Of a DNA stretch of 64,000 nucleotides, positions 1 through 54,854 are shown piece after piece. The translations under genes and the position numbers were made by a program. The stretch is taken from positions 1-64,000 of IMG/VR virus record IMGVR_UViG_3300033072_000303. One strand, written 5' to 3'. Source of the DNA: a virus. Lineage: Duplodnaviria > Heunggongvirae > Uroviricota > Caudoviricetes. A model generated the notes under the pieces. The model was given only the letters and a program-made list of their open reading frames with translations. It made no database searches and was not told the DNA's origin. Within the stretch, counting starts at the first letter, position 1. Each line of letters starts with the position of its first letter.

Positions 1-143
1 ATCCGTTTAGATGGGGTAGTGTTATTACAGTTAAGAATACTTCTAAAGATACTCGTCCAGTTTTGTCAAAAGGTTGGATTGAAAAAGTAATATACGATTC
101 AACTAAAGGTGCAGTGTCTTTAAAAAGTATGTTAGGCGAGTAA
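1..143 (+). CDS. 3' end of an upstream gene (partial, hypothetical protein)
   Basis: Frame 3 is open from the window edge to the TAA at 141-143. The other two forward frames hit stops within 90 nt. No start codon lies inside the window. Confidence 0.3.
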   Translation, partial: PFRWGSVITVKNTSKDTRPVLSKGWIEKVIYDSTKGAVSLKSMLGE

Positions 144-183
144 TGCTCAGAGATATTGTAAAAATAGCAGTAAGGTAAAAATA

Positions 184-1023
184 ATGATAATACTAAATAA
201 TGAAATAGTACCAGTAGCAAAGTTTCCTGCTGGGGAGATTAGGATTAATGTTAAGGCTCTTGATATTAATGAAATAGAACTAAAGTTTGAGGGTTCCGAT
301 GATATTATCGCGTTACAAATGATTTGTGACGCAATTAAACAACAAGGTAAAGAACCCAATGTATTAATTATGAGATATGTGCCTTATGGTCGTCAAGACA
401 GAGTTTGTAACACAGGTGAGTCGTTTAGCTTAGAAGTTTTTGCTAAGACTATTAATGAATTAAAGTTTGGTTCAGTAATTATACAAGACCCACACAGCTG
501 GCAACAAGTTACTATGATAGACAACTCAGTAGTAGTCCCACAAAGTGACACGTGGTTAGATGCTGTCAAAACGTTTAGTAAAACATATAAAGACAAAAAT
601 ACTGAGTTTACTTTAGTATCTCCTGATGCAGGAGCTAAAAAGAAAATTGAGACTTTATCATGCTTATCTGATATTTCATCGATTTACTGTGATAAAGTAA
701 GAGACCCTAAGACAGGTAGACTATCAGATTTTACTGTACAAGGTGACCAAAAGCTAAACGGCGTTTATTGTATTGTTGATGATATATGTGATGGTGGCGG
801 TACATTTATAGGGTTAGCTAAAGAGTTAAAAAGATTGGGTGCTAGTAAAGTACTGTTATGTTGTACTCACGGTATCTTTAGTAAAGGTATTGATTGTATC
901 TTAGAAGAAGTTGATGAAATTTACACTACAGATTCATTAATGTACTATACAAGATTTAGTAATGATGAAAAATTTAAAGTTATTTATAGTGGATATTTTG
1001 AGGAGACTTATAATGGAAATTAA
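184..1023 (+). CDS. Ribose-phosphate pyrophosphokinase family protein (PRPP-synthetase-like; could be the ADP-ribose pyrophosphokinase 'Adps' type)
   Basis: Prs hallmarks are present: YGRQDR and the PRPP-binding loop IVDDICDGGGT. It is 279 aa, the length of a Prs catalytic domain. It lies directly upstream of the NAMPT homologue. Confidence 0.7.
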   Translation: MIILNNEIVPVAKFPAGEIRINVKALDINEIELKFEGSDDIIALQMICDAIKQQGKEPNVLIMRYVPYGRQDRVCNTGESFSLEVFAKTINELKFGSVIIQDPHSWQQVTMIDNSVVVPQSDTWLDAVKTFSKTYKDKNTEFTLVSPDAGAKKKIETLSCLSDISSIYCDKVRDPKTGRLSDFTVQGDQKLNGVYCIVDDICDGGGTFIGLAKELKRLGASKVLLCCTHGIFSKGIDCILEEVDEIYTTDSLMYYTRFSNDEKFKVIYSGYFEETYNGN

Positions 1024-1330
1024 AAGCCAAACAGTAGAGTATAAAGGTACTACAAAGTTTAAGTACACTATTACTAGTGACAACGAGGTTAGGATTAAAA
1101 TCCCTGATAGGTTTATTGGAACGGTATTTGAGCAAGGCTGGATTAGTATGTGTAATGAAATGACCCAAGTATTGCTAACAGTGCCTAGAACTGCCACGTT
1201 AAGAGGCAGAACTGGGCAAAAGGTTAGTAAAATAGCGCCAAAAGTACACTTACGTATTGGACAAAAACACGTAGGCAACTATGATATTTTTAATAAGACA
1301 TACACAGAAGTTAAAAAGGAAGTAGAATGA
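1013..1330 (+). CDS. Hypothetical small protein
   Basis: An internal ATG at 1013 follows AGGAG at 1001-1005. The ORF fills the gap between the Prs-like gene and nadV and ends in a TGATG-type overlap with the nadV start. The track ORF 962..1330 gives the longer alternative. Confidence 0.35.
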   Translation: MEIKSQTVEYKGTTKFKYTITSDNEVRIKIPDRFIGTVFEQGWISMCNEMTQVLLTVPRTATLRGRTGQKVSKIAPKVHLRIGQKHVGNYDIFNKTYTEVKKEVE

Positions 1331-3009
1331 GAATTATGAGAAAAAATCCGATACTTTGTATCGACAGTTATAAGCTTGGACACATCACAATGGTTCCAGA
1401 AGGTGTTGAAACAAGCTACTTAAACTTTACTCCAAGAAGTCTTAAGCATCTAGATAAGATAATCCCAAAAGAGGTTCAAGATGATACTCTAGTTGCGTAT
1501 GGTGCTAGATTAGCAATAAAAGAGATTCACGAGAACTTTAAGCAAGATTTCTTTGCTTTAGATATTGATGAGATTATGGAGGAGTTTTTAATAGAAATTA
1601 AACCTTTTGTTGGAGATAACTCTACGGAAGTAATTGAAAGAAGTATTAGAAATTTACACGCTTTAGGTTACTTACCATTAGAGATAAAATGGATTGCTGA
1701 GGGAACTATAGTACCAGCTAACACTCCGATTATGACCATCAAAAACACTCATTCATCATTCGCTTGGCTTCCAGGGTACCTTGAAACTTACATTTCAGCT
1801 GAGTTCTGGAAAAGAGCAACAAGTGCAACTATAGCAAGAGCGTATAGAAAAATATTAATTAAGTATGCTAAAGAAACTTGCGATAACACTTTACACGTAG
1901 ACTATCAGGGTCACGACTTTAGTGCTAGAGGGTTGTCTGGTGCAGAAGATTTTATTAAAAATGGTACAGCACATTTATTATCATTTAAAGGTACTGATAT
2001 AATTCACTCTGCTACACTTATAAAGCACTTATATAACGTAGAAAACATTGACGTTATAGGCTGCTCAGTTCCAGCTACAGAGCATTCTGTGATGTGTCTT
2101 GGAAGTACAGCTGAAACTGAAGTTGAAACATTCAGAAGACTTATTAAGCTATATCCTAGAGGTATCGTTAGCATTGTATCTGATACTTGGGATTTCTGGG
2201 ATACAATTACAGTTAAAGCACTAGAGTTAAAAGAAGATATCTTAGCTCGTCAAGAGGACTCTTTAGGGTTATCTAAACTAGTATTCAGACCTGATACTGG
2301 AAATCCAGTTGATGTTATTTGTGGATTAAATATTATTAAAACATTAGATGTACAGGTACTAGGTTGGGATAAACTAACGTTGAATGAAGTTCCCGTACAA
2401 AACACAGTGTATTTTGATGGTAACAAGTACAGATGGATTTATGCTAGATGTGACGAAACTACAGGATTATGCGTAGAGATTGATATTGACCAGGCTGAAT
2501 ATCCTGTACCTGAAGCAGAAGCTAAAGGTGCTATTGAATGCTTATGGGACATCTTTGGTGGTAGTGTAAACGATAAAGGTTTCAGAGTTCTTAATCCTAA
2601 AGTTGGTCTAATCTACGGGGATAGTATTACATCTCAAAGAGCAATAGATATTTGTGAAAGGCTTAAAGCTAAAGGATTCGCTTCAAGTAACATAGTATTT
2701 GGTATTGGGTCTTATACTTACAATTATACTACAAGAGATACATTAGGTTCTGCTATTAAAGCAACATACGCTGAGATTAGCGGTAAAGGGTTTGATATAT
2801 TTAAAGCCCCTAAAACAGACTCTGGTAAAAACTCAGCTAAAGGTCTATTATCAGTAGTATTAGAAAACAATAAAATTGTAACATTACAGCAATGCACAAA
2901 AGAACAAGAAGAAAAAGGGTTATTAGTTGTTGGTTATAACTCTGGGGTATTTTCAGAAGAGAAGCCATACTTCAATGAAATTAGAGCAAGAGCTCAAATA
3001 AATTTATAA
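1327..3009 (+). CDS. nadV: Nicotinamide phosphoribosyltransferase (NAMPT/NadV family; possibly the Namat variant)
   Basis: The N-terminus NPILCIDSYKLGH matches the canonical NAMPT start (DSYK..H). It is 560 aa and globular. A good RBS (AAGGAAG) sits 6 nt upstream. Confidence 0.8.
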   Translation: MRIMRKNPILCIDSYKLGHITMVPEGVETSYLNFTPRSLKHLDKIIPKEVQDDTLVAYGARLAIKEIHENFKQDFFALDIDEIMEEFLIEIKPFVGDNSTEVIERSIRNLHALGYLPLEIKWIAEGTIVPANTPIMTIKNTHSSFAWLPGYLETYISAEFWKRATSATIARAYRKILIKYAKETCDNTLHVDYQGHDFSARGLSGAEDFIKNGTAHLLSFKGTDIIHSATLIKHLYNVENIDVIGCSVPATEHSVMCLGSTAETEVETFRRLIKLYPRGIVSIVSDTWDFWDTITVKALELKEDILARQEDSLGLSKLVFRPDTGNPVDVICGLNIIKTLDVQVLGWDKLTLNEVPVQNTVYFDGNKYRWIYARCDETTGLCVEIDIDQAEYPVPEAEAKGAIECLWDIFGGSVNDKGFRVLNPKVGLIYGDSITSQRAIDICERLKAKGFASSNIVFGIGSYTYNYTTRDTLGSAIKATYAEISGKGFDIFKAPKTDSGKNSAKGLLSVVLENNKIVTLQQCTKEQEEKGLLVVGYNSGVFSEEKPYFNEIRARAQINL

Positions 3010-3018
3010 GGAGTAAAA

Positions 3019-3264
3019 ATGCTTAATGTAGATTATAAGCACGATGTAGGAAGTGAGGTTTACTTCCTATCTGAAAATAAAGTTGTTACTGGTAAGGTTA
3101 AGGAAGTTACTATTAAGGTAACAAGAAATCATTATAATGTACAGGAAGTTCTGGTAGTTTGTGATGTACAGTATAGACGTGCAGAACGCGCTGATATTGT
3201 GAAAACAAGTATAAACCAAGACTTACTGTTTAGTACAAAAGACGAGTTATTAAAATCACTATAA
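3019..3264 (+). CDS. Hypothetical protein
   Basis: RBS AAGGAG upstream. 81-aa ORF packed against its neighbours. Confidence 0.5.
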   Translation: MLNVDYKHDVGSEVYFLSENKVVTGKVKEVTIKVTRNHYNVQEVLVVCDVQYRRAERADIVKTSINQDLLFSTKDELLKSL

Positions 3265-3273
3265 AGGAACAAA

Positions 3274-3624
3274 ATGTTTGGATTAAGAAGGCTTAAGATA
3301 TTTACAGTACCACATATGACTGTAAAAGATAAGTTAACTGAGGCTTTGGGGGTGTTTAACACAGCTAAAACTCAGTTACAAGAAGTGGTGTTCTCAGCTA
3401 ATACTGAGATTAAAGAGAAAGAGGAGTTAGTTGCTAAGGCTTTAGAAGAGTTTGAAAGGGTTAAAAAGGTACTAGACGCTAATATTGAAAAGAGTAAGCA
3501 AGAAACTGATGCTCTACAAGAGCTTAAAGTACAAGCTCAAAATATTATGAGTAATATTGATGCTTTAACAAATAATAAAATTCAAATTGTAAAGGATGAA
3601 GAAGATGATGGAAGAAATTGTTAA
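3274..3624 (+). CDS. Hypothetical coiled-coil protein
   Basis: 116 aa rich in E/K/L heptads. RBS AAGGAAC upstream. Confidence 0.5.
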   Translation: MFGLRRLKIFTVPHMTVKDKLTEALGVFNTAKTQLQEVVFSANTEIKEKEELVAKALEEFERVKKVLDANIEKSKQETDALQELKVQAQNIMSNIDALTNNKIQIVKDEEDDGRNC

Positions 3625-3793
3625 AAAGTTTACTAAAATTAAAGAGACTATTATGGCTCTTAATACTTCTGATTGGGAGGTATTAGGATTAGCTTCAATA
3701 AGTTGTATGTTAGTTAATTTTGGGTTTGGTGGCACTTTAGGGGGCATCGCCTCTGGTGTTGTTATTGGTTTATTACTTTTAAAGAAAATTTAA
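3596..3793 (+). CDS. Small membrane protein
   Basis: 65 aa with a C-terminal Gly-rich hydrophobic helix (GFGGTLGGIASGVVIGLLLL). It overlaps the upstream ORF. Confidence 0.4.
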   Translation: MKKMMEEIVKKFTKIKETIMALNTSDWEVLGLASISCMLVNFGFGGTLGGIASGVVIGLLLLKKI

Positions 3794-3803
3794 GGAGATT
3801 AGA

Positions 3804-4658
3804 ATGAAGACAAAATTATATGCAGTATTATTTGTAGGGTTTTTAGTTGCCATCACAGTATATGATGGGTTTTTTATTACACAAGAGGGTAATACTTCTG
3901 TTGTAAAGTCGTTTGGTAAAGCACAAAAAGAAGTTGAACCAGGTTTCCACTTCAAAGTTCCGTTCACAGATTCTGTTGTTAATCTAGATATTAGAGAAAG
4001 AAAATCTGGTGGTGCTATGCAAGTGTCTACTTCAGAACAAATGCCAGTAGATGCTATCATCACTGCTAACTGGAGTATTAAAAAAGGTTCTGGGCTTGGG
4101 TTATATAAAGACTATGGTTCATTAGAGCAATTTGAAGATAAAGTACTTGCACCTAAACTTTTAGAAGCTGCTAAGCAAGGTGCTGCGAAGTTTACTGCTG
4201 AAGAACAAATGAACAAAAGAGACTTAGTTACGAATACAATCAAAGAAGCATTTATACAAAAAGTTTCTTATTTACCTATTGATGTGTCTGCAGTACAAAT
4301 TGAAGAGTTAGTGTTTAACAAAGATTACTTAAATAGTATTGCTAATAAACAAACTCAAAAGAATAATGCTGATGCTGAAAGATTTGTATTAGAAAAACAT
4401 AACTTAACAGCTAGACAAAAAGAGAATACTGCACAAGCAGAGGCTAATGCTACTATAATGGTTGCTAAAGCTGAAGCTGAGAGTATTGAGTTAAAAGGGA
4501 GAGCTGAAGCTCAAGCTATTGAAGCTAAGGCTAAAGCTTTACAAGGTAACCCATTAATCATAGAATTAACAAAGGCTCAGAACTGGAATGGTAGCTATGT
4601 AACTACTAATATTGGTGCTGGTACTCAACCTATTGTTGATTTAAGAGAGAAAAAATAA
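3804..4658 (+). CDS. SPFH/band-7 (prohibitin/HflC-like) membrane protein
   Basis: An N-terminal TM helix is followed by a band-7 core (TQEGNTSVVKSFGK..EPGFHFKVPF..DIRE) and a C-terminal Ala/Glu coiled coil. There is a strong RBS (AAGGAGA). Confidence 0.6.
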   Translation: MKTKLYAVLFVGFLVAITVYDGFFITQEGNTSVVKSFGKAQKEVEPGFHFKVPFTDSVVNLDIRERKSGGAMQVSTSEQMPVDAIITANWSIKKGSGLGLYKDYGSLEQFEDKVLAPKLLEAAKQGAAKFTAEEQMNKRDLVTNTIKEAFIQKVSYLPIDVSAVQIEELVFNKDYLNSIANKQTQKNNADAERFVLEKHNLTARQKENTAQAEANATIMVAKAEAESIELKGRAEAQAIEAKAKALQGNPLIIELTKAQNWNGSYVTTNIGAGTQPIVDLREKK

Positions 4659-16509: not shown

Positions 16510-17622
16510 ATGCGTAAATTAGTTACAATTAGGACAGTTGATAGGTTAATTCCTATCAACGGTTGTGATAATATTTGCTTGGCTGTTATAGATGGTTGGC
16601 AAGTTATCGTTAAGAAAACAGAATTTGTAGTTGGTGATTCTTGTTTATTTTTTGAGATTGATAGTTTTATCCCAGTAAAAGATACGAGATTTCAGTTCTT
16701 AAACAAAGTTACTAAGTTTAATGGTTTTGAAGGTTACAGAATTAAAACCTTAAAAATGAGAGGCGTTTTATCTCAGGGGTTAGCACTACCATTAACTATG
16801 TTTCCAGAGATACAAAATTTCTTTTTGGAAGACTATAGCGAAGCCTTAGGTGTTGTTAAATATGATAATGCAGTTGCTGAGGCTAAAGGTGGACCTAAAG
16901 CTGGTAATTCAGCTGGTAAGTTTCCATCATTTATTCCTAAGACAGACCAAGAAAGGGTACAGAACTTAACATCATACTTTACTACGATGAAGGATGAAGT
17001 ATTTGAAGAGACTTTAAAACTAGATGGCTCTAGTTTAACTTGTTTTACAATGCCAAGACCTAGAACGTGGTTTCAAAAATTACTAAATAAAATAGGGATA
17101 AGAACTGAAATCAAACAAGAGTTTAGAGTTTGTTCTAGAAACCTAGAAATTAAAGAACCACAAAAAGAAGATGAACCTAAAACTTATGATAATAATGGCA
17201 GACCAACCACTGTAAAACAAAGTGATTACTGGACGGTTGTTAAAAAATATAACCTACACAAAAAGATTCCTTTAGGTTTTGCAGTGCAAGGTGAAATGAT
17301 TGGTCCTAAAATTCAAGCTAATCACGAGAAAGTGCACGACCTCGAGTTTTATGCTTTTGACGTGTATGATATAGGTGAATCAAAATACTTGTTACCTCAC
17401 GAAAGAAGAGAGTTTTGTGCTACTTATGATATTCCTCATGTACCTGTTGTTTCGCAAGGAATAAAACCATTTAATATGAGTTTAGAAGAACTTTTAACTC
17501 ACGTTGAAGGAGAGTCTATGAATGCTGGAACAATTTCTGAGGGTAGAGTGTATAAACATATATATAAAGACATCAGTTTTAAAGTTATTAGCAATAGTTA
17601 TTTATTAAAATCAGAAAGGTAA
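16510..17622 (+). CDS. RNA ligase (Rnl, DRB0094/Rnl5-like family)
   Basis: The N-terminus MRKLVTIRTVDRLIPINGCDNICLAVIDGWQVIVKKTEFVVGD..FFEIDSFIP is typical of PF09414-type RNA ligases. Nucleotidyltransferase motif I is present as KLDGSS. Confidence 0.6.
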   Translation: MRKLVTIRTVDRLIPINGCDNICLAVIDGWQVIVKKTEFVVGDSCLFFEIDSFIPVKDTRFQFLNKVTKFNGFEGYRIKTLKMRGVLSQGLALPLTMFPEIQNFFLEDYSEALGVVKYDNAVAEAKGGPKAGNSAGKFPSFIPKTDQERVQNLTSYFTTMKDEVFEETLKLDGSSLTCFTMPRPRTWFQKLLNKIGIRTEIKQEFRVCSRNLEIKEPQKEDEPKTYDNNGRPTTVKQSDYWTVVKKYNLHKKIPLGFAVQGEMIGPKIQANHEKVHDLEFYAFDVYDIGESKYLLPHERREFCATYDIPHVPVVSQGIKPFNMSLEELLTHVEGESMNAGTISEGRVYKHIYKDISFKVISNSYLLKSER

Positions 17623-18937: not shown

Positions 18938-19516
18938 ATGATAGTACTAATTCACGGTAAAAAGAGAAGTGGTAAGGATACTTTAGCAGGTATCCTCAAA
19001 GAGTTAGAGCCGAGGTTAACAGTTAAGTCTTTCGCAGGACCTTTAAAAGAGATTACTGCGAAGTCTTTTGATATATCGTTAGAAACTGTAGATTATTTAA
19101 AGAATAACGAAGATATTAAAATAGAATTCACAGACTCTAAAGAAAAGCTGTGCACTGGTAACTCAGTAAGAAACTTTTTACAAAACTTAGGTACTGAAGC
19201 TATTAAACCTATTTTTGGTAATGACGTTTGGGCTAAGTTATTAATAGAAGGTTATAATACACAAACACATTTATTAGTACCAGACTTTAGAGTTATAGAA
19301 GAGTACAATACATTAACAGATGTTTTAGGTAACGATGAAATAATTACTGTTAATATTATAAGACCTGACGCTGAAATATCTGGCGATACTCATATTACAG
19401 AACAGGGTTTAGCTAATTTTAAGTTTGATTATAGCATAGTTAATGAGGGGTCGCTTGACGACTTAAGAGCAGAAGCTACAGAATTTTTAGCGTACTTAAA
19501 AGGTACTATAAAATGA
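18938..19516 (+). CDS. Deoxynucleoside monophosphate kinase (T4 gp1-like P-loop kinase)
   Basis: The N-terminal P-loop LIHGKKRSGKDT resembles T4 dNMP kinase GVKRSGKDT. Confidence 0.5.
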   Translation: MIVLIHGKKRSGKDTLAGILKELEPRLTVKSFAGPLKEITAKSFDISLETVDYLKNNEDIKIEFTDSKEKLCTGNSVRNFLQNLGTEAIKPIFGNDVWAKLLIEGYNTQTHLLVPDFRVIEEYNTLTDVLGNDEIITVNIIRPDAEISGDTHITEQGLANFKFDYSIVNEGSLDDLRAEATEFLAYLKGTIK

Positions 19517-19665
19517 GTATACTGCAAGATTATTATGATAAAGCTGTAATAGGCTTAAAATTATTTCACGAACATAACTTAGAAATGAGAATCAACTTTT
19601 ATGAGTTTCTAGGTATAGTATGTGTTGCTGAAGTTATATCAAGTATATTTAGATAAGGATTAAAA

Positions 19666-20163
19666 ATGGATAAGAACATAAAAGCATTACAATTAAGATA
19701 TAGACTATACGGATTACCTTTGGATTGGTTTGACTGTACATTTGATAATACTGGTTTAAGTAAACCTGAAGCTGATAGGCTAAAAGGTGCTTTTAGTGTT
19801 CTTAGACGAGGTTCTGTATGTTATGTTCAAGGAACTGCAGGACCTATCGCTAATCAGTATTTAGAGATGGGGTTAATAGTTAGAGGAGTAGACGCTTCTA
19901 TATATATTAGTGACCCTTTTGATAAAGAAGAAAAGAAAGGTTTACCAGATAACGCAGATGTTGTATTTATATATAATTGTTATGAGGGCACAACACAATT
20001 ACCTTTAGTACAAAAAGTGCTTAAGAAACTTATTAATAGTTTTGGTGGTGGTACTATGATTGTGTTATGTGGTGATGCTTTAGGGCGAACATTTAGCAAG
20101 GATTACTACCAAGTACAGAATACTTGTAGTATACCTAAGAAAAAGGAGGAAAACTGGCTTTGA
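19666..20163 (+). CDS. Hypothetical protein
   Basis: 165-aa ORF with RBS AAGGATTAAAA upstream. Confidence 0.45.
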   Translation: MDKNIKALQLRYRLYGLPLDWFDCTFDNTGLSKPEADRLKGAFSVLRRGSVCYVQGTAGPIANQYLEMGLIVRGVDASIYISDPFDKEEKKGLPDNADVVFIYNCYEGTTQLPLVQKVLKKLINSFGGGTMIVLCGDALGRTFSKDYYQVQNTCSIPKKKEENWL

Positions 20164-20369
20164 ATATAATAATAAAAGAATTAGAGGGTATTGCTACGTT
20201 TACCCAACAAGACGGTAATATTATTGATTTTAGAAATATAAATGAACATATATTTATTATAGATAGAGGATTAAAAACACTTAAACCAGAGTGTAAATAT
20301 AAAGTAACTATCGAGCTAATTACAGAAACCGTAGAGGAGTGCAATAATGAAAATACTTTGCCTGAGTGA
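20160..20369 (+). CDS. Hypothetical small protein
   Basis: 69 aa with overlapping ends. Confidence 0.35.
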   Translation: MNIIIKELEGIATFTQQDGNIIDFRNINEHIFIIDRGLKTLKPECKYKVTIELITETVEECNNENTLPE

Positions 20370-20985
20370 TACTCACACTATGCACCATAAAATACAATTA
20401 CCAGATTTATCAGATATTGACGTAATTGTTCATACTGGTGACTTTAGTAATAGTGATGAAGCAAGTACTGATGTATTTTTATGTTGGTTTGCTGACTTAC
20501 CAGTACCTTGTAAAGTCCTGGTAGCGGGTAATCACGATAAATATGTTATGCACTACAACGATAGATTTAAAATAAAATGTGCTGTATTAGGCATAGAGTA
20601 TCTACAAGACTCTGGATGTGAAATTAATGGCATTAAATTTTGGGGTACACCTTGGGTTAATCAGTTTTATAACTGGGCGTTTATGATGTACGAAAAAGAC
20701 TTAAGTAAAGTTTATAAGTTAATACCTAAAAACACCGAGATTCTACTGTCCCACGGACCAGCTAAAGGTATACTAGACTTTGTTGATAGAGTAGGTGGAG
20801 GTAATGTTGGAGCTATGACGTTAAAAGAGCGTTTAGCTAAACTGCCTAAACTGAAATACCACATCTTTGGTCATATCCACGAGGGTTATGGTATTTTAGA
20901 TACTGGCAGCTACATAGCAGTAAATGCTTCTTCTGTTACAGAATTATATAAACCAGTTAATCAACCTATAATAATAGAGGTGTAA
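20347..20985 (+). CDS. Calcineurin-like metallophosphoesterase
   Basis: Metallophosphoesterase motifs are in order: LSDTH, HTGDFS, AGNHD, SHGP, GHIHEG. Confidence 0.6.
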   Translation: MKILCLSDTHTMHHKIQLPDLSDIDVIVHTGDFSNSDEASTDVFLCWFADLPVPCKVLVAGNHDKYVMHYNDRFKIKCAVLGIEYLQDSGCEINGIKFWGTPWVNQFYNWAFMMYEKDLSKVYKLIPKNTEILLSHGPAKGILDFVDRVGGGNVGAMTLKERLAKLPKLKYHIFGHIHEGYGILDTGSYIAVNASSVTELYKPVNQPIIIEV

Positions 20986-23300
20986 TGAAAAATATAGTAC
21001 AAGCACAACAAACAGGTCTTTTATGGTTTTTAAAAGATAGCTTAACACAAGAGCAACAAGACAGGATTAAAACATACTATACGTATATTAACCCTAAAGA
21101 CCAAGATAATATTTTTAGTACCTTTATAGAGCTAAAAGATAAGATTGGAGTCCCTTATGGAGATAAAGATAAAATTAGAAACTTACTCCAAGTTGAACTA
21201 GAGGTTCAAGATAACAGGATATCCCCTAAGTTTAAAAAGAAAAAAGTTTCTAAGCTTAAATTACGAGACTATCAAGAGCTTGTTATGAAAGATATAATGA
21301 CATTTATAAATAACAATGGAACATCATTTAATTTATCTGGTGAACCTGGTTGCGTTGATAAAGACACAGAGTTTTTATCACTAGATGGTTGGAAGAAAAT
21401 ATCAGAGTACAAAGAAGGGGATTTAGTAGGTACTTATAAAGATGGTATAGTTGAGTTTGAGAAACCTTTAACTTATATCGTTAAACCTTGTGATAAGTGG
21501 ATTAATTTGTATTCTGGTACTAAACACATAGCACAACTTTCAGAAGAGCATAGAGTTGTTTATAAGACCTCTAAAGGTAATATGGCTATAAAGACTGCTA
21601 GTAACTTATTACAAGATAAAAATAGAGTAAATTTAATCACAAATGCTAATGGTAATAATTTAAAAGGTATAGACTTAAGTGATGACTTAATTAGATTACA
21701 ATGTGCTATCGCAGCTGATGGTACTAAGTTACCACAACCTAATAAGTTTAGACTTAATCTTAAAAAGCAGCATAAAATTTCAAGATTGAGAATATTACTA
21801 AAAAATTGTAAAATAGACTACACAGAGTCATTTAGTAATGTTACTGGATACACAGTATTTTATTTTTATGTACCTGATAGACTAGTTAAAAGTCTCCTAC
21901 CTTTTTATAGTTGTAATACTAGACAACTTAAAATCATAGCAGAAGAAGTTTTATTATGGGATGGCTCACAATCACAACGTACTTTTTATAGTACTATAAA
22001 AGAAGAGGCTGACTTTGTTCAATACTGTTTTACGTTACAAGGATATACTGCTAGTATGGTTATTGATGATAGAATAGGAGAACAGCAGGGTAAATACACA
22101 AGAAAGAGTAAAACATACGAGGTTAGACTAACCAAAGATAGTTCTATAGCTTTAAATTTTAAATCTGTTGGTAGATGTCCAGACACGATATCAGAAGTTC
22201 CTGCTGAGCCTAATGATTTAAAATACTGCTTTACAGTGTCATCTGGTATGTTCTTTATTCGTAAAAATTTAAAAGTACATGTTACTGGTAATTCAGGGAA
22301 AAGTTTCATGTTAGCAAATATATTAGCAAATCTTGGAACTAAAACCCTTATTATTGCTCACTTAAGTCAACTAACAAAACAGTTAGCAAAAGAGATAGAA
22401 GCAGTTCTTGGGTATAAACCTCAGATATTAGATAAAGACACAAAAGAGTTAGCTGATATTAATATAGCGACTTCTCAACTTATATCTAAAAATCCTGATT
22501 TATGGTACCTTATAAAGAAAGGTATAGGTTGTATAGTTATAGATGAAGCAGAAACTCTAGCATCTTTAAGTACATTAAGAATTGTACAAAGAGCTCACGC
22601 TAAATACCATATATTTATATCTGCTACATTCACTAGGTCAGTAGACCATAGAACTGAGGCTTTAATAGATTTTGCTGGACCTAACGTGTTTACACTTAAA
22701 AACCCTGCTCTGTTAAAACCACAAGTTATAACAGTTCAATGTTCAGAAACTTTTACAGCGCCTATGGATACAAAGTTATATAACTTAGCACGAGGTAGAT
22801 TTTATAAACGTGACTCTATATCTGATAAAGTTTTGTTAATTACTAAAGCATCGTTAAGAAAAAATAGACAAGTGCTGATAGCATGTGATGTAGTAGAACT
22901 ACAGCTTAAGTTAAAAGACTTATTGACAGACATTGGTATTAAGTCTGAATGTATTAACTCTGGTACTAAAGCGTCTTTGAGAGATTCTGCGATGGTAGAC
23001 TTTGATAATGGTGACTTACAAGTATTAATTGGTTTTGGTACACTAAATGCTGGTTTAAGTATACCTAAGATTAGTACTATTATAAGAGTCGCTACACCCA
23101 GTTCACAAGAAAAATTAGAGCAACTTATCGGTAGAGCACGAAGAGACTTTGATGGTAAAGACGGAGCATTTGTTATAGACCTTATGTTTCAAGGGTTTAA
23201 CAATGATAGTCGTTTAAAGTTATATAAAAAGAAACGAAGACAAGATGATTGGAAACTTAATCAAACAACTTGGGACGAGTTTGAAAGGAAGATAAAATGA
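20985..23300 (+). CDS. SF2 (DEAD/DEAH, UvsW-like) helicase interrupted by an intein
   Basis: Extein motifs are RDYQ, a Walker A rebuilt as GEPG|SGKS across the insert, VIDEAE (motif II), ISATFTR (motif III) and IGRARR (motif VI). A 314-aa insert starts with Cys and ends with Asn before a Ser at +1. Confidence 0.65.
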   Translation: MKNIVQAQQTGLLWFLKDSLTQEQQDRIKTYYTYINPKDQDNIFSTFIELKDKIGVPYGDKDKIRNLLQVELEVQDNRISPKFKKKKVSKLKLRDYQELVMKDIMTFINNNGTSFNLSGEPGCVDKDTEFLSLDGWKKISEYKEGDLVGTYKDGIVEFEKPLTYIVKPCDKWINLYSGTKHIAQLSEEHRVVYKTSKGNMAIKTASNLLQDKNRVNLITNANGNNLKGIDLSDDLIRLQCAIAADGTKLPQPNKFRLNLKKQHKISRLRILLKNCKIDYTESFSNVTGYTVFYFYVPDRLVKSLLPFYSCNTRQLKIIAEEVLLWDGSQSQRTFYSTIKEEADFVQYCFTLQGYTASMVIDDRIGEQQGKYTRKSKTYEVRLTKDSSIALNFKSVGRCPDTISEVPAEPNDLKYCFTVSSGMFFIRKNLKVHVTGNSGKSFMLANILANLGTKTLIIAHLSQLTKQLAKEIEAVLGYKPQILDKDTKELADINIATSQLISKNPDLWYLIKKGIGCIVIDEAETLASLSTLRIVQRAHAKYHIFISATFTRSVDHRTEALIDFAGPNVFTLKNPALLKPQVITVQCSETFTAPMDTKLYNLARGRFYKRDSISDKVLLITKASLRKNRQVLIACDVVELQLKLKDLLTDIGIKSECINSGTKASLRDSAMVDFDNGDLQVLIGFGTLNAGLSIPKISTIIRVATPSSQEKLEQLIGRARRDFDGKDGAFVIDLMFQGFNNDSRLKLYKKKRRQDDWKLNQTTWDEFERKIK
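21351..22292 (+). mobile_element. Intein with LAGLIDADG homing-endonuclease domain, inserted in the helicase P-loop
   Basis: The N-terminus is CVDKDTEFLSLDGW..EGDLV (Hint block A), with GTKH in block B. Two LAGLIDADG-like motifs are present: LIRLQCAIAADGT and IIAEEVLLWDGSQ. The C-terminus is KVHVTGN|S. Excising it restores GEPGSGKS. Confidence 0.55.
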
Positions 23301-23728
23301 AACTATATGACGAAATACAATCAAAAGATACTATGTATAGTAGCTTCCCAATAAAAGAAACTATGCTAACAGAAGGTAAAACGTACTCTGTAATTTATGT
23401 TGATGGTGGTAAGTTTGCGTTATTTGACGATAACAACCATCATATAGAGTTTTGGGATGTAGAATTTGATGAATACTTTACAAGTGTTACAGAAGATTTT
23501 AATAATCTAATAAAACATCTGGAAATAAGTTGTAAGTTGAATAAAAATATACCTATTAAAATGTATGATTATGTGTTTAAAAATTACAAGAGTTTTAATA
23601 TGATTTATACAAAACTAGAAAATAGAAGCGTAGAAAAATCTTTTGATTCTATAATAATTAAAGACACAGCATATAGTACGAAATTAACTAGCGAAGAACT
23701 TCTAGCTAAATTAAAGGAAACGATATGA
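23297..23728 (+). CDS. Hypothetical protein
   Basis: 143 aa. ATGA-coupled on both sides. Confidence 0.45.
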   Translation: MKLYDEIQSKDTMYSSFPIKETMLTEGKTYSVIYVDGGKFALFDDNNHHIEFWDVEFDEYFTSVTEDFNNLIKHLEISCKLNKNIPIKMYDYVFKNYKSFNMIYTKLENRSVEKSFDSIIIKDTAYSTKLTSEELLAKLKETI

Positions 23729-24783
23729 TAAAAGATAAAATAAAAGAATTAGAGATTGCTCACGATATCAGAGTTATATACTTGATAAAAAGCGGTTCAG
23801 CCCTATATGGTACTAATTCAGATAGTTCTGATACGGATTATATGGGTATTTTTATACCTAGTGCTAGGTCAGTAATGCTGAAAAAAGACCTAGAACATAT
23901 ATGTCTAACTACTGGTGAAGCTAACTCTAGAAACTCTGCAGATGATGAAGACTTACAACTATGGAGTATTTATAAATTCCTACATCTGGTAAAGAAAGGT
24001 GAAACTGGTGCGTTAGATTTATTATTTAGTTTTAACGCTAAACACTCATCTGAAATACACGTAATAAACGACACAATGTACACAGATACGATAACAGAAA
24101 ATATACCTAAGCTTGTATCAAAAAACTTACAAGCTTTTGTTGGTTACTGCCTAGGACAAGCTAAAAAGTACAATATAAAAGGTGAAAGGTATTCTGAAGT
24201 AGAAGTCTTCTATAGAGAATTTAAAGAACTTGAAGTAAAGACTACTAAAAGTTCTTTACATACTATACATAGGACACTAGAAGATATAATAGATAAGGCT
24301 AGGTTTAAATACATTAAGTTAGTAAGGGCAAGAGGACCAAAAAGGTTTACAGAAGAAGATATTTGGTACATTGAAATACTAGGCAGAAAACACGCTTTAG
24401 ATATCTCTATAGCAGAATTCACAGCTCGTATAGACAAACTATTCAACTCTTTTGGAGCAAGAGTTATAGCCGCAGCTGACGGTGTAGACAATAAAGCTTT
24501 AAGCCACGCTACAAGAGTTATCTTAGAGTGTAAAGAGTTACTAGAAAAAGGTTATATTACATTCCCATTACCATCTGCTGAGTTTATTAAAGAAATAAAA
24601 TATCATAAAGACTTAGTTAATGGTACTCCAGAAAATCCTGGATTAACTTTAGAAAGTATTATGGTTTTATTAGAAAGAACTTTAGATGATGTTAATAGGT
24701 TACTAGAAGATTCAGAGTTACCTGATAAAGTATCAGAGGAATTAATAACAGAAATGTTAATAGAAATAATGGAGATAGTATGA
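23725..24783 (+). CDS. Pol-beta-superfamily nucleotidyltransferase (minimal NTase fold)
   Basis: SGSALYGTNSDSSDTDYMGIF fits hG[GS]x(9-13)Dh[DE]h. It is ATGA-coupled to the CCA-adding enzyme gene. Confidence 0.45.
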   Translation: MIKDKIKELEIAHDIRVIYLIKSGSALYGTNSDSSDTDYMGIFIPSARSVMLKKDLEHICLTTGEANSRNSADDEDLQLWSIYKFLHLVKKGETGALDLLFSFNAKHSSEIHVINDTMYTDTITENIPKLVSKNLQAFVGYCLGQAKKYNIKGERYSEVEVFYREFKELEVKTTKSSLHTIHRTLEDIIDKARFKYIKLVRARGPKRFTEEDIWYIEILGRKHALDISIAEFTARIDKLFNSFGARVIAAADGVDNKALSHATRVILECKELLEKGYITFPLPSAEFIKEIKYHKDLVNGTPENPGLTLESIMVLLERTLDDVNRLLEDSELPDKVSEELITEMLIEIMEIV

Positions 24784-26093
24784 TGTTTAACACACCGAAT
24801 GTGTATGTTGTAGGTGGTGCTGTAAGAGATATTCTTATGGGTGTACAACCTAGAGATATAGACTACGTTGCAGTAGGTTTAACTGCACAGCAACTAATAG
24901 ATGATGGTTTCGTTCCTATAGATGCTGAATTCCCTGTTTTCCTTGACCCTAATGATAACTCAGAAGTAGCTTTGGCTCGTAGAGAAAAAAGCACTGGTAA
25001 AGGTTATAAAGACTTTACCACTGACACGTCTGATGTAACTTTAGAAGAAGATTTAAGAAGACGTGACTTAACAATTAATGCTATGGCTATGGATTCTGAA
25101 AAAACTATTATAGACCCATTTGGAGGACAGAAAGACCTACAGTCTAAAATATTAAGGCATACTTCTGACGCGTTCTTTGAAGACCCCTTAAGAGTATTAA
25201 GGTTAGCAAGATTTCAAACTAAGTACCCAGACTTTAGGATTCATGAAAGTACTATAGAAATTGTTAAAGCAAACAAAGACTCGCTTAAAGCTTTGACTCC
25301 TGAAAGAGTACAAAAAGAAATGTATAAAGCTTTAGAGTACAAGTACCCTAGTTTGTACTTTAGAACACTAGAGTTTTTAGGTGTTTTGGATTTAGTTCAT
25401 CCAGAACTTTATGATATGAAGCAATGTATTCAAAAACCTACACATCACGCAGAAGGTGACGTTTTTCTACACTCTATGATGGTATTAGATGAATGCGCTA
25501 AGTTATCTAAGGATGTTAACACTAGATTAGGAGCACTTTACCACGATATAGCAAAACCTATATGCGATGTTAAAAAACAAGGTTTTCATAAAGGTCACGA
25601 TGGTATTAATGTAGTACAACCTTTAGTACAAGAATTAAAAAATAGGTATAAGCTTCCTAATAAAGCTGAGAAGCGTATTGTCCAAGGTGCTTTATTTCAT
25701 ATGAAGCTACACAAATTAAAAGATATGAATTCTAGTACTATTGCAAGTATGTTTAACGATAAGTTCTTTCCAAAAACTAAAGAAGATTTAATTCAGTTAC
25801 TATGTATAAGCGTAGCTGATTCAAGAGGTAGAATCACAATCGGGTATGATAAAGAGGAAGTAAATGTTGATGCTATAGTTAATACTTTTAACGCTATTAA
25901 GGCGTATAGCCCAAAAGCTGAAATTGAAGAATATAACAAAAGACATCTTGATGATGGTAAAACTGCTAATCCAGAACTGATTAAACAAATGATTCATAAA
26001 TACTCTATTAAGTGTGTTGACGCTTGGTTAAGACCTCATTATACTATATCTAAAGATAAACAAGATAACTATACTAAACATCTCTTAAGTTAA
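24780..26093 (+). CDS. cca: CCA-adding tRNA nucleotidyltransferase with HD domain
   Basis: The class II head is VVGGAVRDILMG..RDIDYV. The HD domain is present as HHAEGDVFLHSMMVLD and LYHDIAKP. Confidence 0.75.
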   Translation: MMFNTPNVYVVGGAVRDILMGVQPRDIDYVAVGLTAQQLIDDGFVPIDAEFPVFLDPNDNSEVALARREKSTGKGYKDFTTDTSDVTLEEDLRRRDLTINAMAMDSEKTIIDPFGGQKDLQSKILRHTSDAFFEDPLRVLRLARFQTKYPDFRIHESTIEIVKANKDSLKALTPERVQKEMYKALEYKYPSLYFRTLEFLGVLDLVHPELYDMKQCIQKPTHHAEGDVFLHSMMVLDECAKLSKDVNTRLGALYHDIAKPICDVKKQGFHKGHDGINVVQPLVQELKNRYKLPNKAEKRIVQGALFHMKLHKLKDMNSSTIASMFNDKFFPKTKEDLIQLLCISVADSRGRITIGYDKEEVNVDAIVNTFNAIKAYSPKAEIEEYNKRHLDDGKTANPELIKQMIHKYSIKCVDAWLRPHYTISKDKQDNYTKHLLS

Positions 26094-44865: not shown

Positions 44866-45155
44866 TGAATGAGGTAATGATTGCAGAATTTTATAATAGA
44901 CTAAAAACTGAGCTAGGTGTATCTATAAGGGTAGCCAGAGAGATTCATAAAGGGTATAAAGCAGTATATTTAGCTTGTATAGCTAATGGTGAGTCCTTTC
45001 AACTACCTGGAATAGGTTTTATAGAACTACGTCCTTACACAGATACACAAGCTCGTAACCCTAAGACTAAAAGTATGGTTGAGCGTCAGGCTAAATATAA
45101 GATAATATTTTCAGCGTCAAAAACTGCTAAACGACTAATAGGAAAAAGGGTATGA
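44865..45155 (+). CDS. HU/IHF-family DNA-binding protein
   Basis: Beta-arm signature ELRPYTDTQARNPKTKSMV. 96 aa. Confidence 0.7.
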   Translation: MNEVMIAEFYNRLKTELGVSIRVAREIHKGYKAVYLACIANGESFQLPGIGFIELRPYTDTQARNPKTKSMVERQAKYKIIFSASKTAKRLIGKRV

Positions 45156-54233: not shown

Positions 54234-54854
54234 CTATCCCTCAAACTTATATTTATCAAGCTCAGCTCTTAACTTCTGAACACAACTACTCTCAGCACAA
54301 TTATCTATAGCCTCTTTTAGCCCTAAATAATAATCCGTTACATCTCTACCAGTACCTACGGTTCCTAGTAACTTACCATCAGCATTATAAAAAGGCGCTT
54401 TATGTACTTCTAAATAAATATCTTTACCATTTACTTTACCATACTCCAAGAACTTCTCTTTATCAAGTTTAGCTAGTACTACAACGTCACTATTACCACA
54501 AATCTCACCAAATGTATGTTTATCATCTCCAACTAAAGCTTTACACATCTTAGATAACTCAATATCGTTTCTACCTAAAACAGCACTTTTATCCATACCA
54601 TAGAAAAGCACTCTTCTAATCTCTGGGTTAGCATAAATATAATTACCATCAGTATCTTTAGCCCACATTAAATCAGGAATAGTATTCCCAACAGCAATAA
54701 CTAAATTTTTATACTTATCTCTGTCCGCCCTTATAGTTCTAAGCTCATTATCTAATTTTCCTATTAATTCTCTATCATGGTTTAGCGTAGCGGATATTTC
54801 ATCTAGCTTACATAATAAGTCACCTTTAATAATCTTTTTAACCCACTCTACCAC
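54234..54854 (-). CDS. PAS-fold domain protein
   Basis: A PAS-like core reads WAKDTDGNYIYANPEIRRVLFYGMDKSAVLGRNDIEL. 206 aa. Confidence 0.4.
   Translation of the reverse strand: MVEWVKKIIKGDLLCKLDEISATLNHDRELIGKLDNELRTIRADRDKYKNLVIAVGNTIPDLMWAKDTDGNYIYANPEIRRVLFYGMDKSAVLGRNDIELSKMCKALVGDDKHTFGEICGNSDVVVLAKLDKEKFLEYGKVNGKDIYLEVHKAPFYNADGKLLGTVGTGRDVTDYYLGLKEAIDNCAESSCVQKLRAELDKYKFEG

What the first reader, a model, noticed from the sequence alone, without database searches (positions are those of the whole stretch)
184..3009. PRPP-synthetase-like kinase next to a NAMPT homologue: a two-gene NAD+ reconstitution pair
A Prs-family enzyme (YGRQDR, DDICDGGGT) sits beside a full-length NAMPT (DSYKLGH). 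This is the architecture reported for phage NAD+ reconstitution pathway 1. There, a Prs homologue pyrophosphorylates ADP-ribose and a NAMPT homologue joins it to nicotinamide to rebuild NAD+ after immune-driven depletion by Thoeris, DSR, SIR2 or SEFIR systems. It could instead be classical salvage of Nam through PRPP to NMN. No NMN adenylyltransferase was recognised in this window, which favours the NARP1-like reading. It pairs naturally with the NAD+-consuming PARP at 27863.
Basis: partly seen in the sequence, partly recalled or inferred. Interest (0 to 1): 0.6.

Follow-up and report, generated by a model that had tools for sequence, protein, structure and literature searches.

The report
Phage NAD+ rebuilding operon (NARP1)
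An uncultivated phage carries the already-described two-enzyme pathway that rebuilds NAD+ from the fragments left by bacterial NAD+-destroying defences; it is an ordinary new example, with one small unknown gene wedged between the two enzymes.

Summary
ORFs at 184-1023 (279 aa, Prs-like) and 1327-3009 (560 aa, NAMPT-like) exist and carry the quoted motifs.

- **NAMPT-like protein.** Its best solved-structure match is SpbetaL1 Namat (396 bits, against 192 for human NAMPT and 186 for a KVP40-species NadV). It carries the published Namat signature (GSYTYNYTTRD), keeps all 20 ligand-contact positions, and falls in the Namat clade.
- **Prs-like protein.** It groups with the characterised Adps enzymes of ICP1 and SpbetaL1, not with canonical Prs. 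It keeps the catalytic Lys (K171), the acceptor-site residues and the DDICDG loop, and lacks the Prs C-terminal module.
- **Other pathways.** No NMNAT, Nudix, Macro, RyR, PnuC or NadR domain occurs in the 64 kb.

So this is a new member of a known, common system; about 3-4% of deposited phage records hold these genes.

Three departures were found:
- The operon has three translationally coupled genes. A conserved 105-aa gene (orfX, 1013-1330) of unknown fold sits where the Macro phosphatase sits in NARP1-AP.
- Namat has a 62-aa insertion, at a site that also carries an insertion in the Namat of Felixounavirus phage Alf5.
- A close relative has a probable intein at the catalytic histidine.

The PARP at 27863 is real, but its functional pairing with this operon is untested. 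Interest is low.

The parts
184..1023 (+). adps: ADP-ribose diphosphokinase (Prs-like), 279 aa
   Evidence: ORF; Prs-family profiles; 36% and 35% identity to ICP1 and SpbetaL1 Adps against 24% to E. coli Prs; Adps clade in the NJ tree.
688..723 (+). Adps catalytic beta-hairpin (aa 169-180, CDKVRDPKTGRL) with catalytic Lys K171 (nt 694-696)
   Evidence: K171 aligns with ICP1 K185 and SpbetaL1 K162, both shown by mutation to be essential (PMC13586617; bioRxiv 10.1101/2024.02.11.579819). The K-x-R-D/N-x-x-T-G hairpin is shared with Adps proteins and is one residue longer than in Prs.
778..807 (+). Adps PP loop (aa 199-208, DDICDGGGTF)
   Evidence: DDICDG is identical to ICP1 D212-G217, and F208 equals ICP1 F221. 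Canonical Prs has DD-x-I-D/S-T-G/A-G-T.
1000..1005 (+). Shine-Dalgarno GAGGAG for orfX, 7-nt spacer to the ATG at 1013
   Evidence: Read directly from the sequence.
1013..1330 (+). orfX: conserved 105-aa gene of unknown function. It overlaps the adps stop by 11 nt and the namat start by ATGA.
   Evidence: 60% identical to the orthologue in relative L008 at the same position. pN 0.21 against pS 0.73. 18 close homologues and 24 representatives among 1.84 billion proteins. AF2 model pLDDT 84.8 with no convincing fold relative. No Pfam, PHROG, PADLOC or PDB hit.
1327..3009 (+). namat: nicotinamide ADP-ribose transferase (NAMPT-like), 560 aa
   Evidence: Best PDB match is 9W5X/9W5W, the SpbetaL1 Namat, at 396 bits against 192 for human NAMPT (PDB ids per PMC12774641). 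Namat clade.
1438..1485 (+). Namat selectivity-clamp loop (SCL) region, aa 38-53 (SLKHLDKIIPKEVQDD). Third residue is Lys40, followed by His41.
   Evidence: Aligns with SpbetaL1 T38-S39-R40. It is 8 residues longer than in SpbetaL1 and 11 longer than in the Nampts. The pattern 'third residue R/K/Y, next residue stacks' is from PMC12774641.
2083..2085 (+). Namat catalytic histidine H253 in PATEHSVMC
   Evidence: Aligned with the catalytic His of Namat and Nampt. Nampts read PAREHSTT at this site.
2326..2511 (+). 62-aa lineage-specific insertion in Namat (aa 334-395) after VICG
   Evidence: Absent from the SpbetaL1 and ICP1 Namats and from all Nampts. Present in relatives L008 and L010. The Felixounavirus Alf5 Namat has an unrelated insertion at the same site.
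2707..2739 (+). Namat selectivity-clamp helix (SCH) motif GSYTYNYTTRD (aa 461-471)
   Evidence: Matches the published Namat consensus GS-X-Phi-X-Phi-X-Phi-TRD with aromatic X (PMC12774641). The Nampts read GGGLLQ..RD.

Best explanation
This is a NARP1 (NAD+ reconstitution pathway 1) operon of an uncultivated virulent-type phage.

When a host defence such as Thoeris, DSR, SIR2-HerA/Nezha, SEFIR or Kongming cleaves NAD+ into ADP-ribose and nicotinamide, two enzymes act in turn. The Prs-like enzyme Adps (184-1023) transfers the beta-gamma pyrophosphate of ATP onto the 1'' hydroxyl of ADP-ribose, giving ADPR-pyrophosphate and AMP. The NAMPT-like enzyme Namat (1327-3009) then displaces that pyrophosphate with nicotinamide and regenerates NAD+ directly, with no NMN intermediate and no NMN adenylyltransferase.

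Shown here: gene presence, operon structure, clade membership, and conservation of the catalytic and substrate-selectivity residues. Inferred from the characterised homologues (SpbetaL1, Bas63, ICP1): the two reactions and the anti-defence role. The 105-aa gene between the two enzymes is co-translated with them; its role is unknown.
For: Architecture: adps, orfX and namat lie on one strand with overlapping stop and start codons. The order, Adps upstream of Namat, is the same as in SpbetaL1 genes 190-191 and ICP1 ORF228-229.

Namat:
- Its top solved-structure hits are the SpbetaL1 Namat crystal structures 9W5X/9W5W at 396 bits, twice the score of human NAMPT (192) and Xanthomonas Nampt (178).
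- phmmer gives 396, 354 and 315 bits to the SpbetaL1, Alf5 and ICP1 Namats, against 186, 162 and 152 to the phi-pp2 (species KVP40) NadV and two T4-like Nampts. It sits in the Namat clade of the NJ tree.
- The SCH signature is GSYTYNYTTRD, against GGGLLQ..RD in the Nampts.
- Of the 20 ligand-contact positions of the NAD+ complex, 17 are identical and 3 are substituted the same way as in the ICP1 and Alf5 Namats (R40->K, A362->S, F392->Y). At S462, Y463 and Y467 the Nampts have G, G and Q/E.

Adps:
- It sits in the Adps clade.
- K171 corresponds to the catalytic Lys. F14, R70, H104, D148, D199, D200 and D203 correspond to ICP1 F18, R87, H121, D161, D212, D213 and D216.
- The DDICDG loop is identical to ICP1's, and the Prs C-terminal alpha11-alpha12 module is absent.
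- It scores far below every Prs equivalog cut-off, for example 111 bits against 296.

Absence of alternatives: no CTP_transf_like/NMNAT, NUDIX, Macro, RyR, PnuC or NadR-type domain in the window. The published survey found Adps-associated Namats and Nmnat-associated Nampts in separate clades, and no phage with both pathways.
Against: - No enzymology or infection assay exists for these proteins; function rests on 35-46% identity to characterised enzymes.
- Two ICP1 Adps contact residues are not conserved (F92->C75, F223->G210). F92 is also missing in the active SpbetaL1 enzyme.
- Adps scores 91 bits to SpbetaL1 Adps and 74 bits to M. jannaschii Prs, so the separation there is modest.
- Namat has a 62-aa insertion and an SCL loop 8 residues longer than in SpbetaL1; their effects are unknown. 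The predicted adenine-stacking SCL residue would be a His, which is not among the published examples.
- Namat enzymes keep about half of the Nampt activity on PRPP in vitro, so some NMN formation cannot be excluded.
- Only 64 kb of a contig of at least 86 kb could be searched for an NMNAT.
- The trees are small neighbour-joining trees (9 sequences each) without support values.
Confidence: 0.88

Rival explanations
1. Classical nicotinamide salvage. The 279-aa protein is a true Prs that makes PRPP. The 560-aa protein is a NadV/Nampt that makes NMN, and NMN is finished to NAD+ by a host enzyme (NadR or NadD/PncC) or by a phage NMNAT encoded outside the window, as in NARP2.
For: Both proteins hit the generic Prs and NAPRTase/Nampt profiles and are annotated that way in nearly all homologous phage records. 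Namat enzymes retain PRPP-dependent NMN synthesis in vitro. At least 22 kb of the source contig was not seen.
Against: The Nampt-clade signatures are absent: no GGGLLQ..RD, PAREHSTT or IQGDG, and no short SCL. The protein scores half as well against the KVP40-species NadV as against Namats. The Prs-like protein is outside the Prs clade, lacks the Prs PP-loop Thr and the C-terminal module, and is far below the equivalog cut-offs. SpbetaL1 Adps gave no PRPP-forming activity. There is no NMNAT or Nudix in 64 kb. In the published survey, Nampts of the NARP2 clade occur in phages without Adps.
Confidence: 0.05
2. Same chemistry, different purpose. The operon mainly recycles NAD+ consumed by the phage's own NAD+-using enzymes, such as the PARP at 27863-29182, rather than countering host NADase defences.
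For: A full-length PARP (WGR, regulatory and catalytic domains, with an H-Y-E triad visible in LWHGT, GLYFS and NDEMIVF) is encoded in the same genome.
Against: PARP yields nicotinamide plus protein-linked ADP-ribose, not free ADPR. No Macro, PARG or ARH-type hydrolase was found in the window to release ADPR. The two loci are 25 kb apart. Relatives with the operon could not be checked for a PARP. NARP1 operons occur in phage records from dozens of host genera; their PARP content was not surveyed here. The phage DNA ligase at 26200-27561 is ATP-dependent, not NAD+-dependent.
Confidence: 0.06

Closest known systems
NARP1 of Bacillus phage SPbetaL1 (Adps = gene 190, Namat = gene 191; Namat structures 9W5X/9W5W)
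   Same: Adps lies upstream of Namat on one strand. Namat is 46-47% identical, with the same catalytic core and SCH motif pattern (GSFTYQYNTRD against GSYTYNYTTRD). Adps is 35% identical, with the same catalytic Lys (K162 = K171) and the GGTF end of the PP loop.
   Different: SPbetaL1 has no gene between the two enzymes; their coding sequences abut. Its SCL uses Arg40 and is 8 residues shorter. It has no 62-aa insertion. Its PP loop reads DDLSSF rather than DDICDG.
ICP1 NrsA/NrsB = Adps/Namat (Vibrio phage ICP1 ORF228/229; Adps structures in PMC13586617)
   Same: This is the closest characterised Adps: 36-38% identity and 130 bits. The DDICDG PP loop is identical, and F18, R87, H121, D161, K185, D212, D213, D216 and F221 are conserved. 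It likewise lacks the Prs C-terminal module. Its Namat has Lys at the SCL third position and the SCH motif GSYTYQYVTRD.
   Different: ICP1 has A-A-S where the window has G-G-T in the PP loop. ICP1 F92 and F223 are Cys and Gly here. ICP1 has no intervening gene and no Namat insertion.
Bas63 (JohannRWettstein) NARP1, represented here by Felixounavirus phage Alf5
   Same: Same gene order. The Namat SCL third residue is Lys followed by a ring-bearing residue (Alf5 K-W, window K-H). Alf5 also has a large insertion at the same site after the (I/V)-x-G that follows RPDSG.
   Different: The insertion sequences are unrelated. The Bas63 record itself was not retrieved. That Bas63 belongs to Felixounavirus is from my own knowledge, not a tool result, so Alf5 is only a presumed stand-in for it.
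NARP1-AP (Adps-Adpp-Namat of Vibrio phage Gary; bioRxiv 10.64898/2026.01.28.702374)
   Same: A three-gene operon with an extra gene between Adps and Namat.
   Different: The extra gene there is a Macro-domain ADPR-1''-phosphate phosphatase. OrfX here is 105 aa, has no Macro hit, and its confident model shows no Macro-like fold relative.
NARP2 (KVP40 NadV + NatV)
   Same: It contains a homologous nicotinamide-transferring enzyme of the NAPRTase/Nampt superfamily.
   Different: The window protein lacks the Nampt-clade motifs and groups apart from the KVP40-species NadV (186 bits against 396 for Namat). There is no Nmnat/Nudix partner, and an Adps partner is present.

Membership tests
NARP1 (system) | An Adps homologue and a Namat homologue encoded together in one operon | tested here: met
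   184-1023 and 1327-3009 are on the same strand. They are linked through orfX by overlapping stop and start codons.
NARP1 (system) | No Nmnat partner; NARP1 and NARP2 are not found together | tested here: inconclusive
   No NMNAT or Nudix in 64 kb by Pfam and by a six-frame motif scan. At least 22 kb of the source contig could not be retrieved.
NARP1 (system) | Rebuilds NAD+ from ADPR plus nicotinamide plus ATP and rescues phage from NAD+-depleting defence | not testable with these tools
   Needs enzymology and infection assays.
Adps | Groups with characterised Adps rather than with canonical Prs | tested here: met
   The NJ tree separates window, L008, L010, ICP1, Alf5 and SpbetaL1 from E. 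coli, B. subtilis and M. jannaschii Prs. Scores are 130, 119 and 91 bits against 74, 53 and 45. All Prs equivalog cut-offs are missed by a wide margin.
Adps | Catalytic Lys on the beta-hairpin (ICP1 K185 / SpbetaL1 K162) | tested here: met
   K171 in CDKVRDPKTG.
Adps | Acceptor-groove residues R87, H121, D161, D212, D213, D216 (ICP1 numbering) | tested here: met
   R70, H104, D148, D199, D200, D203. These residues are also conserved in Prs, so they show an intact active site rather than ADPR specificity.
Adps | Remodelled PP loop (donor site, ICP1 C215-S220) conserved across Adps homologues | tested here: met
   DDICDG is identical to ICP1. The G-G-T-F ending matches SpbetaL1 and relative L010. 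The Prs-specific Thr (DTGGT) is absent.
Adps | Adenine contacts F18 and F92, and lid residues F221 and F223 | tested here: inconclusive
   F14 and F208 are conserved. F92 is C75 and F223 is G210. F92 is also unaligned (a gap) in the active SpbetaL1 enzyme.
Adps | Loss of the Prs C-terminal alpha11-alpha12 module | tested here: met
   The protein is 279 aa. The alignment with E. coli Prs shows the C-terminal segment missing, as in ICP1 and SpbetaL1 (criterion).
Adps | Pyrophosphorylates ADPR, not ribose-5-phosphate | not testable with these tools
   Requires an LC-MS assay.
Namat | Nampt-like catalytic core (D13', Y15', F189, R192, D215, catalytic His, R306, D308, G360-D361, R399') | tested here: met
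   D13, Y15, F198, R201, D224, H253, R321, D323, G431-D432 and R470 are all conserved.
Namat | [quoted passage not shown] | tested here: met
   GSYTYNYTTRD at aa 461-471, with Y463 and Y467 aromatic. Phi3 is Thr rather than the usual Asn or Val. The Nampts read GGGLLQ..RD.
Namat | SCL loop whose third residue is Arg, Lys or Tyr and which supplies an adenine-stacking residue | tested here: inconclusive
   S38-L39-K40-H41. Lys at the third position fits the pattern. The stacking residue would be His41, which is not a documented case. The loop is 8 residues longer than in SpbetaL1.
Namat | Falls in the Adps-associated clade, distinct from the Nmnat-associated Nampt clade | tested here: met
   NJ tree and phmmer scores. 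The tblastn identities to phage homologues are bimodal: 35-44% in one group, and 28-32% for the KVP40-like and T4-like phages.
Namat | Prefers ADPR-PP over PRPP | not testable with these tools
   Requires a competition assay.
NARP2 | Nampt-clade enzyme plus a bifunctional Nmnat/Nudix | tested here: not met
   The protein has Namat-clade motifs, and no Nmnat or Nudix is in the window.
NARP3 | PnuC-like transporter plus NadR-like kinase/adenylyltransferase | tested here: not met
   No such Pfam domains among the window proteins (definition).
NARP1-AP | Macro-domain ADPR-1''-P phosphatase (Adpp) in the operon | tested here: not met
   No Macro domain in the window. OrfX, in the Adpp position, has no Macro-like sequence or fold match.
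Canonical Prs (ribose-phosphate diphosphokinase) | Reaches the equivalog/subfamily cut-offs and keeps the DTGGT ribose-5-phosphate loop and the C-terminal regulatory module | tested here: not met
   Scores of 45-117 bits against cut-offs of 296-536; only the broad TIGR01251 model is just passed (117 against 113). The loop reads DGGGT, and the C-terminal module is absent.

The most novel reading that the evidence does not exclude
The conserved 105-aa orfX (1013-1330) is translationally coupled between Adps and Namat, in the position the Macro phosphatase Adpp occupies in NARP1-AP. It could be a new NARP1 accessory. One possibility is that it converts a further NADase or TIR product into usable ADPR. 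Another is that it binds and blocks a host NAD+-degrading effector. Either would define another extended variant of the pathway. Its core is unusually conserved and rich in invariant polar residues (GTTKFKYT.T.DN.VRIKIPDRF.G...EQ.W...C.E), it has no recognisable fold relative, and it stays within about 2.3 kb of Adps through three different gene orders.
Probability: 0.15. Interest if true: 0.55.

Novelty: new member of a known kind. Interest (0 to 1): 0.2.

Why it matters
It adds a divergent, uncultivated-phage example, about 35-46% identical to the characterised enzymes, to a counter-defence pathway that is already well described. It also shows that the recently published structure-derived signatures separate NARP1 from classical Prs/NadV salvage on raw sequence. 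Those signatures are the Namat SCH motif, the Adps hairpin and PP loop, and the loss of the Prs C-terminus. Most database records still annotate these genes as Prs and NadV, so this is practically useful. The only part that could lead somewhere new is the unknown small gene embedded in the operon.

Tried and rejected
- **Guessed Bas63 accession.** MZ501111 turned out to be Bas51. I used Felixounavirus Alf5 instead.
- **Source contig.** Exact-protein look-ups returned only contigs of about 1 kb. The IMG/VR and JGI metagenome scans returned only distant relatives. The region upstream of adps and the rest of the genome therefore remain unseen.
- **Literature.** Lee et al. 2017 (KVP40 NadV/NatV) is not held. 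The Osterman supplements gave no KVP40 coordinates. I used phi-pp2, which belongs to the same species.
- **OrfX as aRad1 (aRES inhibitor).** Rejected: hhalign probability 0.9%.
- **OrfX in other libraries.** PADLOC, PHROG and PDB sequence searches found nothing. The afdb50 fold library was unavailable.
- **Distant orfX homologues.** Their contigs are too short to show whether NARP1 is nearby. They showed instead that the constant neighbour is a downstream signal-peptide protein. This weakens a specific NARP1 link.
- **Promoter scan of 1-3900.** No enrichment over shuffles, 15 sites against 14.7 expected.
- **Intein and helicase.** Pfam did not recognise a Hint or LAGLIDADG domain in the relative's Namat insertion or in the window helicase insertion.
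Full report
**Observation.** The window holds a 279-aa ORF at 184..1023 and a 560-aa ORF at 1327..3009, both on the + strand. These are the coordinates given, and the quoted motifs (YGRQDR, DDICDGGGT, DSYKLGH) are present.
- The first protein matches Prs-family profiles. Its Pfam hits are weak. TIGR01251 scores 117 bits against a cut-off of 113. Every Prs equivalog model scores far below its cut-off. PHROG 619 scores 258 bits.
- The second protein is a full-length NAPRTase/Nampt-family protein: Pfam E 7.5e-34, PRK09198 at 485 bits, PHROG 448 at 566 bits.

**Genome context.** The DNA has no close relative among 50,697 deposited phage records. Protein identities to deposited phages peak near 40%. 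I scanned all window ORFs of at least 60 aa against Pfam.
- They form a typical large virulent-phage replication and nucleotide-metabolism module: PolA, class I RNR, ThyX, PhoH-PIN, DnaB, primase, Mre11/Rad50-like, endonuclease VII, ATP-dependent DNA ligase, RNA ligase, a CCA-adding enzyme and a dNMP kinase. Tail-fibre genes lie on the opposite strand.
- The gene pair is common. tblastn finds a Prs/Adps-like gene in 1,570 records and a Nampt/Namat-like gene in 2,027 records.

**Is the NAMPT homologue a Namat or a Nampt?**
- Its best solved-structure matches are 9W5X and 9W5W at 396 bits. Human NAMPT scores 192 and Xanthomonas Nampt 178. PMC12774641 identifies 9W5X/9W5W as the SpbetaL1 Namat bound to nicotinamide and to NAD+.
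- That paper defines a 'selectivity clamp' that gives Namat its preference for ADPR-PP. It has a helix motif, GS-X-Phi-X-Phi-X-Phi-TRD with aromatic X, and a variable loop whose third residue is Arg, Lys or Tyr.
- The window protein reads GSYTYNYTTRD (aa 461-471), and its loop reads S-L-K-H.
- I fetched reference genes: SpbetaL1 genes 190/191 (identity confirmed), ICP1 ORF228/229, Felixounavirus Alf5, the NadV of phi-pp2, a member of species KVP40, and two T4-like Nampts.
- In the alignment and NJ tree the window protein and its two metagenomic relatives fall inside the Namat clade. phmmer scores are 396, 354 and 315 bits to Namats, against 186, 162 and 152 to Nampts.
- The clades differ at several motifs, and the window protein has the Namat form at each: GSYTY.Y.TRD against GGGLLQ...RD, PATEHSVMC against PAREHSTT, and IYGDSIT against IQGDG. 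Its loop is long where the Nampts have SRGGKF-D.
- Of the 20 ligand-contact positions of the NAD+ complex, 17 are identical and 3 are substituted the same way as in the ICP1 and Alf5 Namats. At S462, Y463 and Y467 the Nampts have G, G and Q/E.
- tblastn identities of the window protein to phage homologues are bimodal: 35-44% for most phages, and 28-32% for the KVP40-like and T4-like phages.

**Is the Prs homologue an Adps or a Prs?**
- PMC13586617 gives structures of ICP1 Adps and lists the functional residues and family signatures.
- The window protein is 36% identical to ICP1 Adps, 35% to SpbetaL1 Adps and 24% to E. coli Prs.
- K171 aligns with the catalytic Lys: ICP1 K185 and SpbetaL1 K162, both essential by mutagenesis.
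- F14, R70, H104, D148, D199, D200 and D203 match F18, R87, H121, D161, D212, D213 and D216. The DDICDG stretch is identical to ICP1, and F208 matches F221.
- F92 and F223 are not conserved here. F92 is also absent from the active SpbetaL1 enzyme.
- The protein ends where Adps proteins end and lacks the Prs alpha11-alpha12 module.
- I aligned it with three canonical Prs: E. coli, and the aligned regions of B. subtilis 1DKR and M. jannaschii 1U9Y taken. The window protein groups with the Adps proteins.
- It shares three Adps features with them: the one-residue-longer hairpin K-x-R-D/N-x-x-T-G, the DPHS motif, and a PP loop without the Prs Thr.
- Scores are 130, 119 and 91 bits to Adps proteins, against 74, 53 and 45 to Prs. 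The gap between the weakest Adps score and the best Prs score is modest.

**Alternatives.**
- No NMNAT (CTP_transf_like), NUDIX, Macro, RyR, PnuC or NadR-type domain was found in any window protein.
- No NMNAT or Nudix signature occurs in any of the six frames.
- This excludes NARP2, NARP3 (definition) and NARP1-AP for the 64 kb in hand.
- The published survey reports that Adps-associated Namats and Nmnat-associated Nampts form separate clades, and that no phage carries both pathways.
- The source contig, 86 kb according to the cluster records, could not be retrieved. An NMNAT in the unseen part cannot be strictly excluded.

**Mechanism.** By homology to the three characterised systems, Adps transfers the beta-gamma pyrophosphate of ATP to the 1'' position of ADP-ribose released by host NADases. 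Namat then couples ADPR-PP to nicotinamide to give NAD+ directly. Gene presence, operon structure, clade membership and residue conservation are shown here. The chemistry and the anti-defence role are inferred.

**Departures from the canonical two-gene operon.**
1. **A third gene, orfX (1013-1330, 105 aa).**
   - It has a GAGGAG ribosome-binding site. It overlaps the adps stop by 11 nt, and its stop overlaps the namat start as ATGA.
   - It is 60% identical to the gene at the same position in a relative (L008), with pN 0.21 against pS 0.73.
   - It belongs to a rare family: 18 close homologues and 24 representatives among 1.84 billion proteins. The core GTTKFKYT.T.DN.VRIKIPDRF.G is invariant.
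   - A confident AF2 model (pLDDT 84.8) has no convincing fold relative.
   - It is not a Macro domain, an RyR domain or aRad1.
   - In six contexts it lies within about 2.3 kb of Adps, in three different gene orders. All of these phages are syntenic relatives.
   - Its most constant neighbour is a downstream signal-peptide protein, which is missing in the window. A specific role in NARP1 is therefore possible but unsupported.
2. **A 62-aa insertion in Namat (aa 334-395) after VICG.** Relatives share it. Felixounavirus Namat has an unrelated insertion at the same site. The site therefore seems to tolerate insertions.
3. **A 314-aa insertion in the relative's Namat.** It lies exactly between PA and TEHS of the catalytic-His motif. 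It begins with Cys and ends with Asn, followed by Thr, so it is a probable intein. Pfam did not recognise a Hint domain in it.

**The PARP remark.** A 439-aa protein at 27863-29182 has WGR, PARP regulatory and PARP catalytic domains. An H-Y-E triad is visible in its sequence. It is real and unusual for a phage. Nothing links it functionally to the operon. It would produce protein-bound ADP-ribose, and no ADPR-releasing hydrolase was found in the window.

**Verdict.** This is a bona fide NARP1 operon: a new and fairly divergent member of a known and widespread kind. Interest is low, apart from the embedded unknown gene.

Noticed in passing
window 1013-1330 (+): A conserved 105-aa gene (orfX) is translationally coupled between adps and namat. 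It belongs to a rare family, has an invariant polar core and no recognisable fold or domain, and sits in the position Adpp occupies in NARP1-AP.
   Followed up: yes
window 2326-2511 (+), Namat aa 334-395: A 62-aa insertion after VICG is shared with relatives L008 and L010. Felixounavirus Alf5 Namat has an unrelated insertion at the same site. Its structure and effect are unknown.
   Followed up: partly
L008:2160-3101 (relative, Logan SRR24540909): A 314-aa insertion in the relative's Namat lies exactly between PA and TEHS of the catalytic-histidine motif. It starts with Cys and ends with Asn followed by Thr, so it is a probable intein with a LAGLIDADG-like stretch. The window copy lacks it. 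Pfam found no Hint or LAGLIDADG hit.
   Followed up: partly
window 27863-29182 (+): A full-length PARP-like protein (WGR, PARP regulatory and PARP catalytic domains) with H-Y-E triad residues visible. It lies immediately downstream of an ATP-dependent DNA ligase (26200-27561). This is unusual for a phage.
   Followed up: partly
window 16510-17622, 23725-24783, 24780-26093 (+): An RNA-repair-like gene set: an RNA ligase with a PHA02142 OB domain, an RlaP-family nucleotidyltransferase, and a CCA-adding enzyme (PolyA_pol head, RNA-binding and HD domains). This suggests countering tRNA-targeting defences.
   Followed up: no
window 20985-23300 (+): A 771-aa ResIII/DEAD helicase has roughly 300 extra residues between an N-terminal ...SGEPG|C... 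junction and the helicase core. This may be an intein or an inserted domain. Pfam gave no Hint or endonuclease hit.
   Followed up: partly
L010:3126-3917; L018:688-1473; L019:1260-2036; L020:1-358: A reverse-transcriptase gene (RVT_1, about 260 aa) is conserved 2-3 kb upstream of the orfX/NARP1 locus in all relatives with enough flank. The corresponding region of this phage lies beyond the left edge of the window.
   Followed up: no
window 3804-4658 (+): An SPFH/Band_7 membrane protein lies just downstream of namat. This synteny is conserved in relatives L008, L010 and the ERZ22666135 contig.
   Followed up: no
window 54234-54854 (-): A 206-aa protein with a PAS sensor domain sits among the lysis and tail genes on the minus strand. 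This is uncommon in phages.
   Followed up: no
window 18938-20985 and 48448-49407, 51048-52322 (+): A MazG-like pyrophosphohydrolase, a dNMP kinase and three calcineurin-like phosphoesterases are present. One of the phosphoesterases (48448-49407) lies about 1.7 kb downstream of the SbcC/Rad50-like ATPase gene (45152-46777).
   Followed up: no
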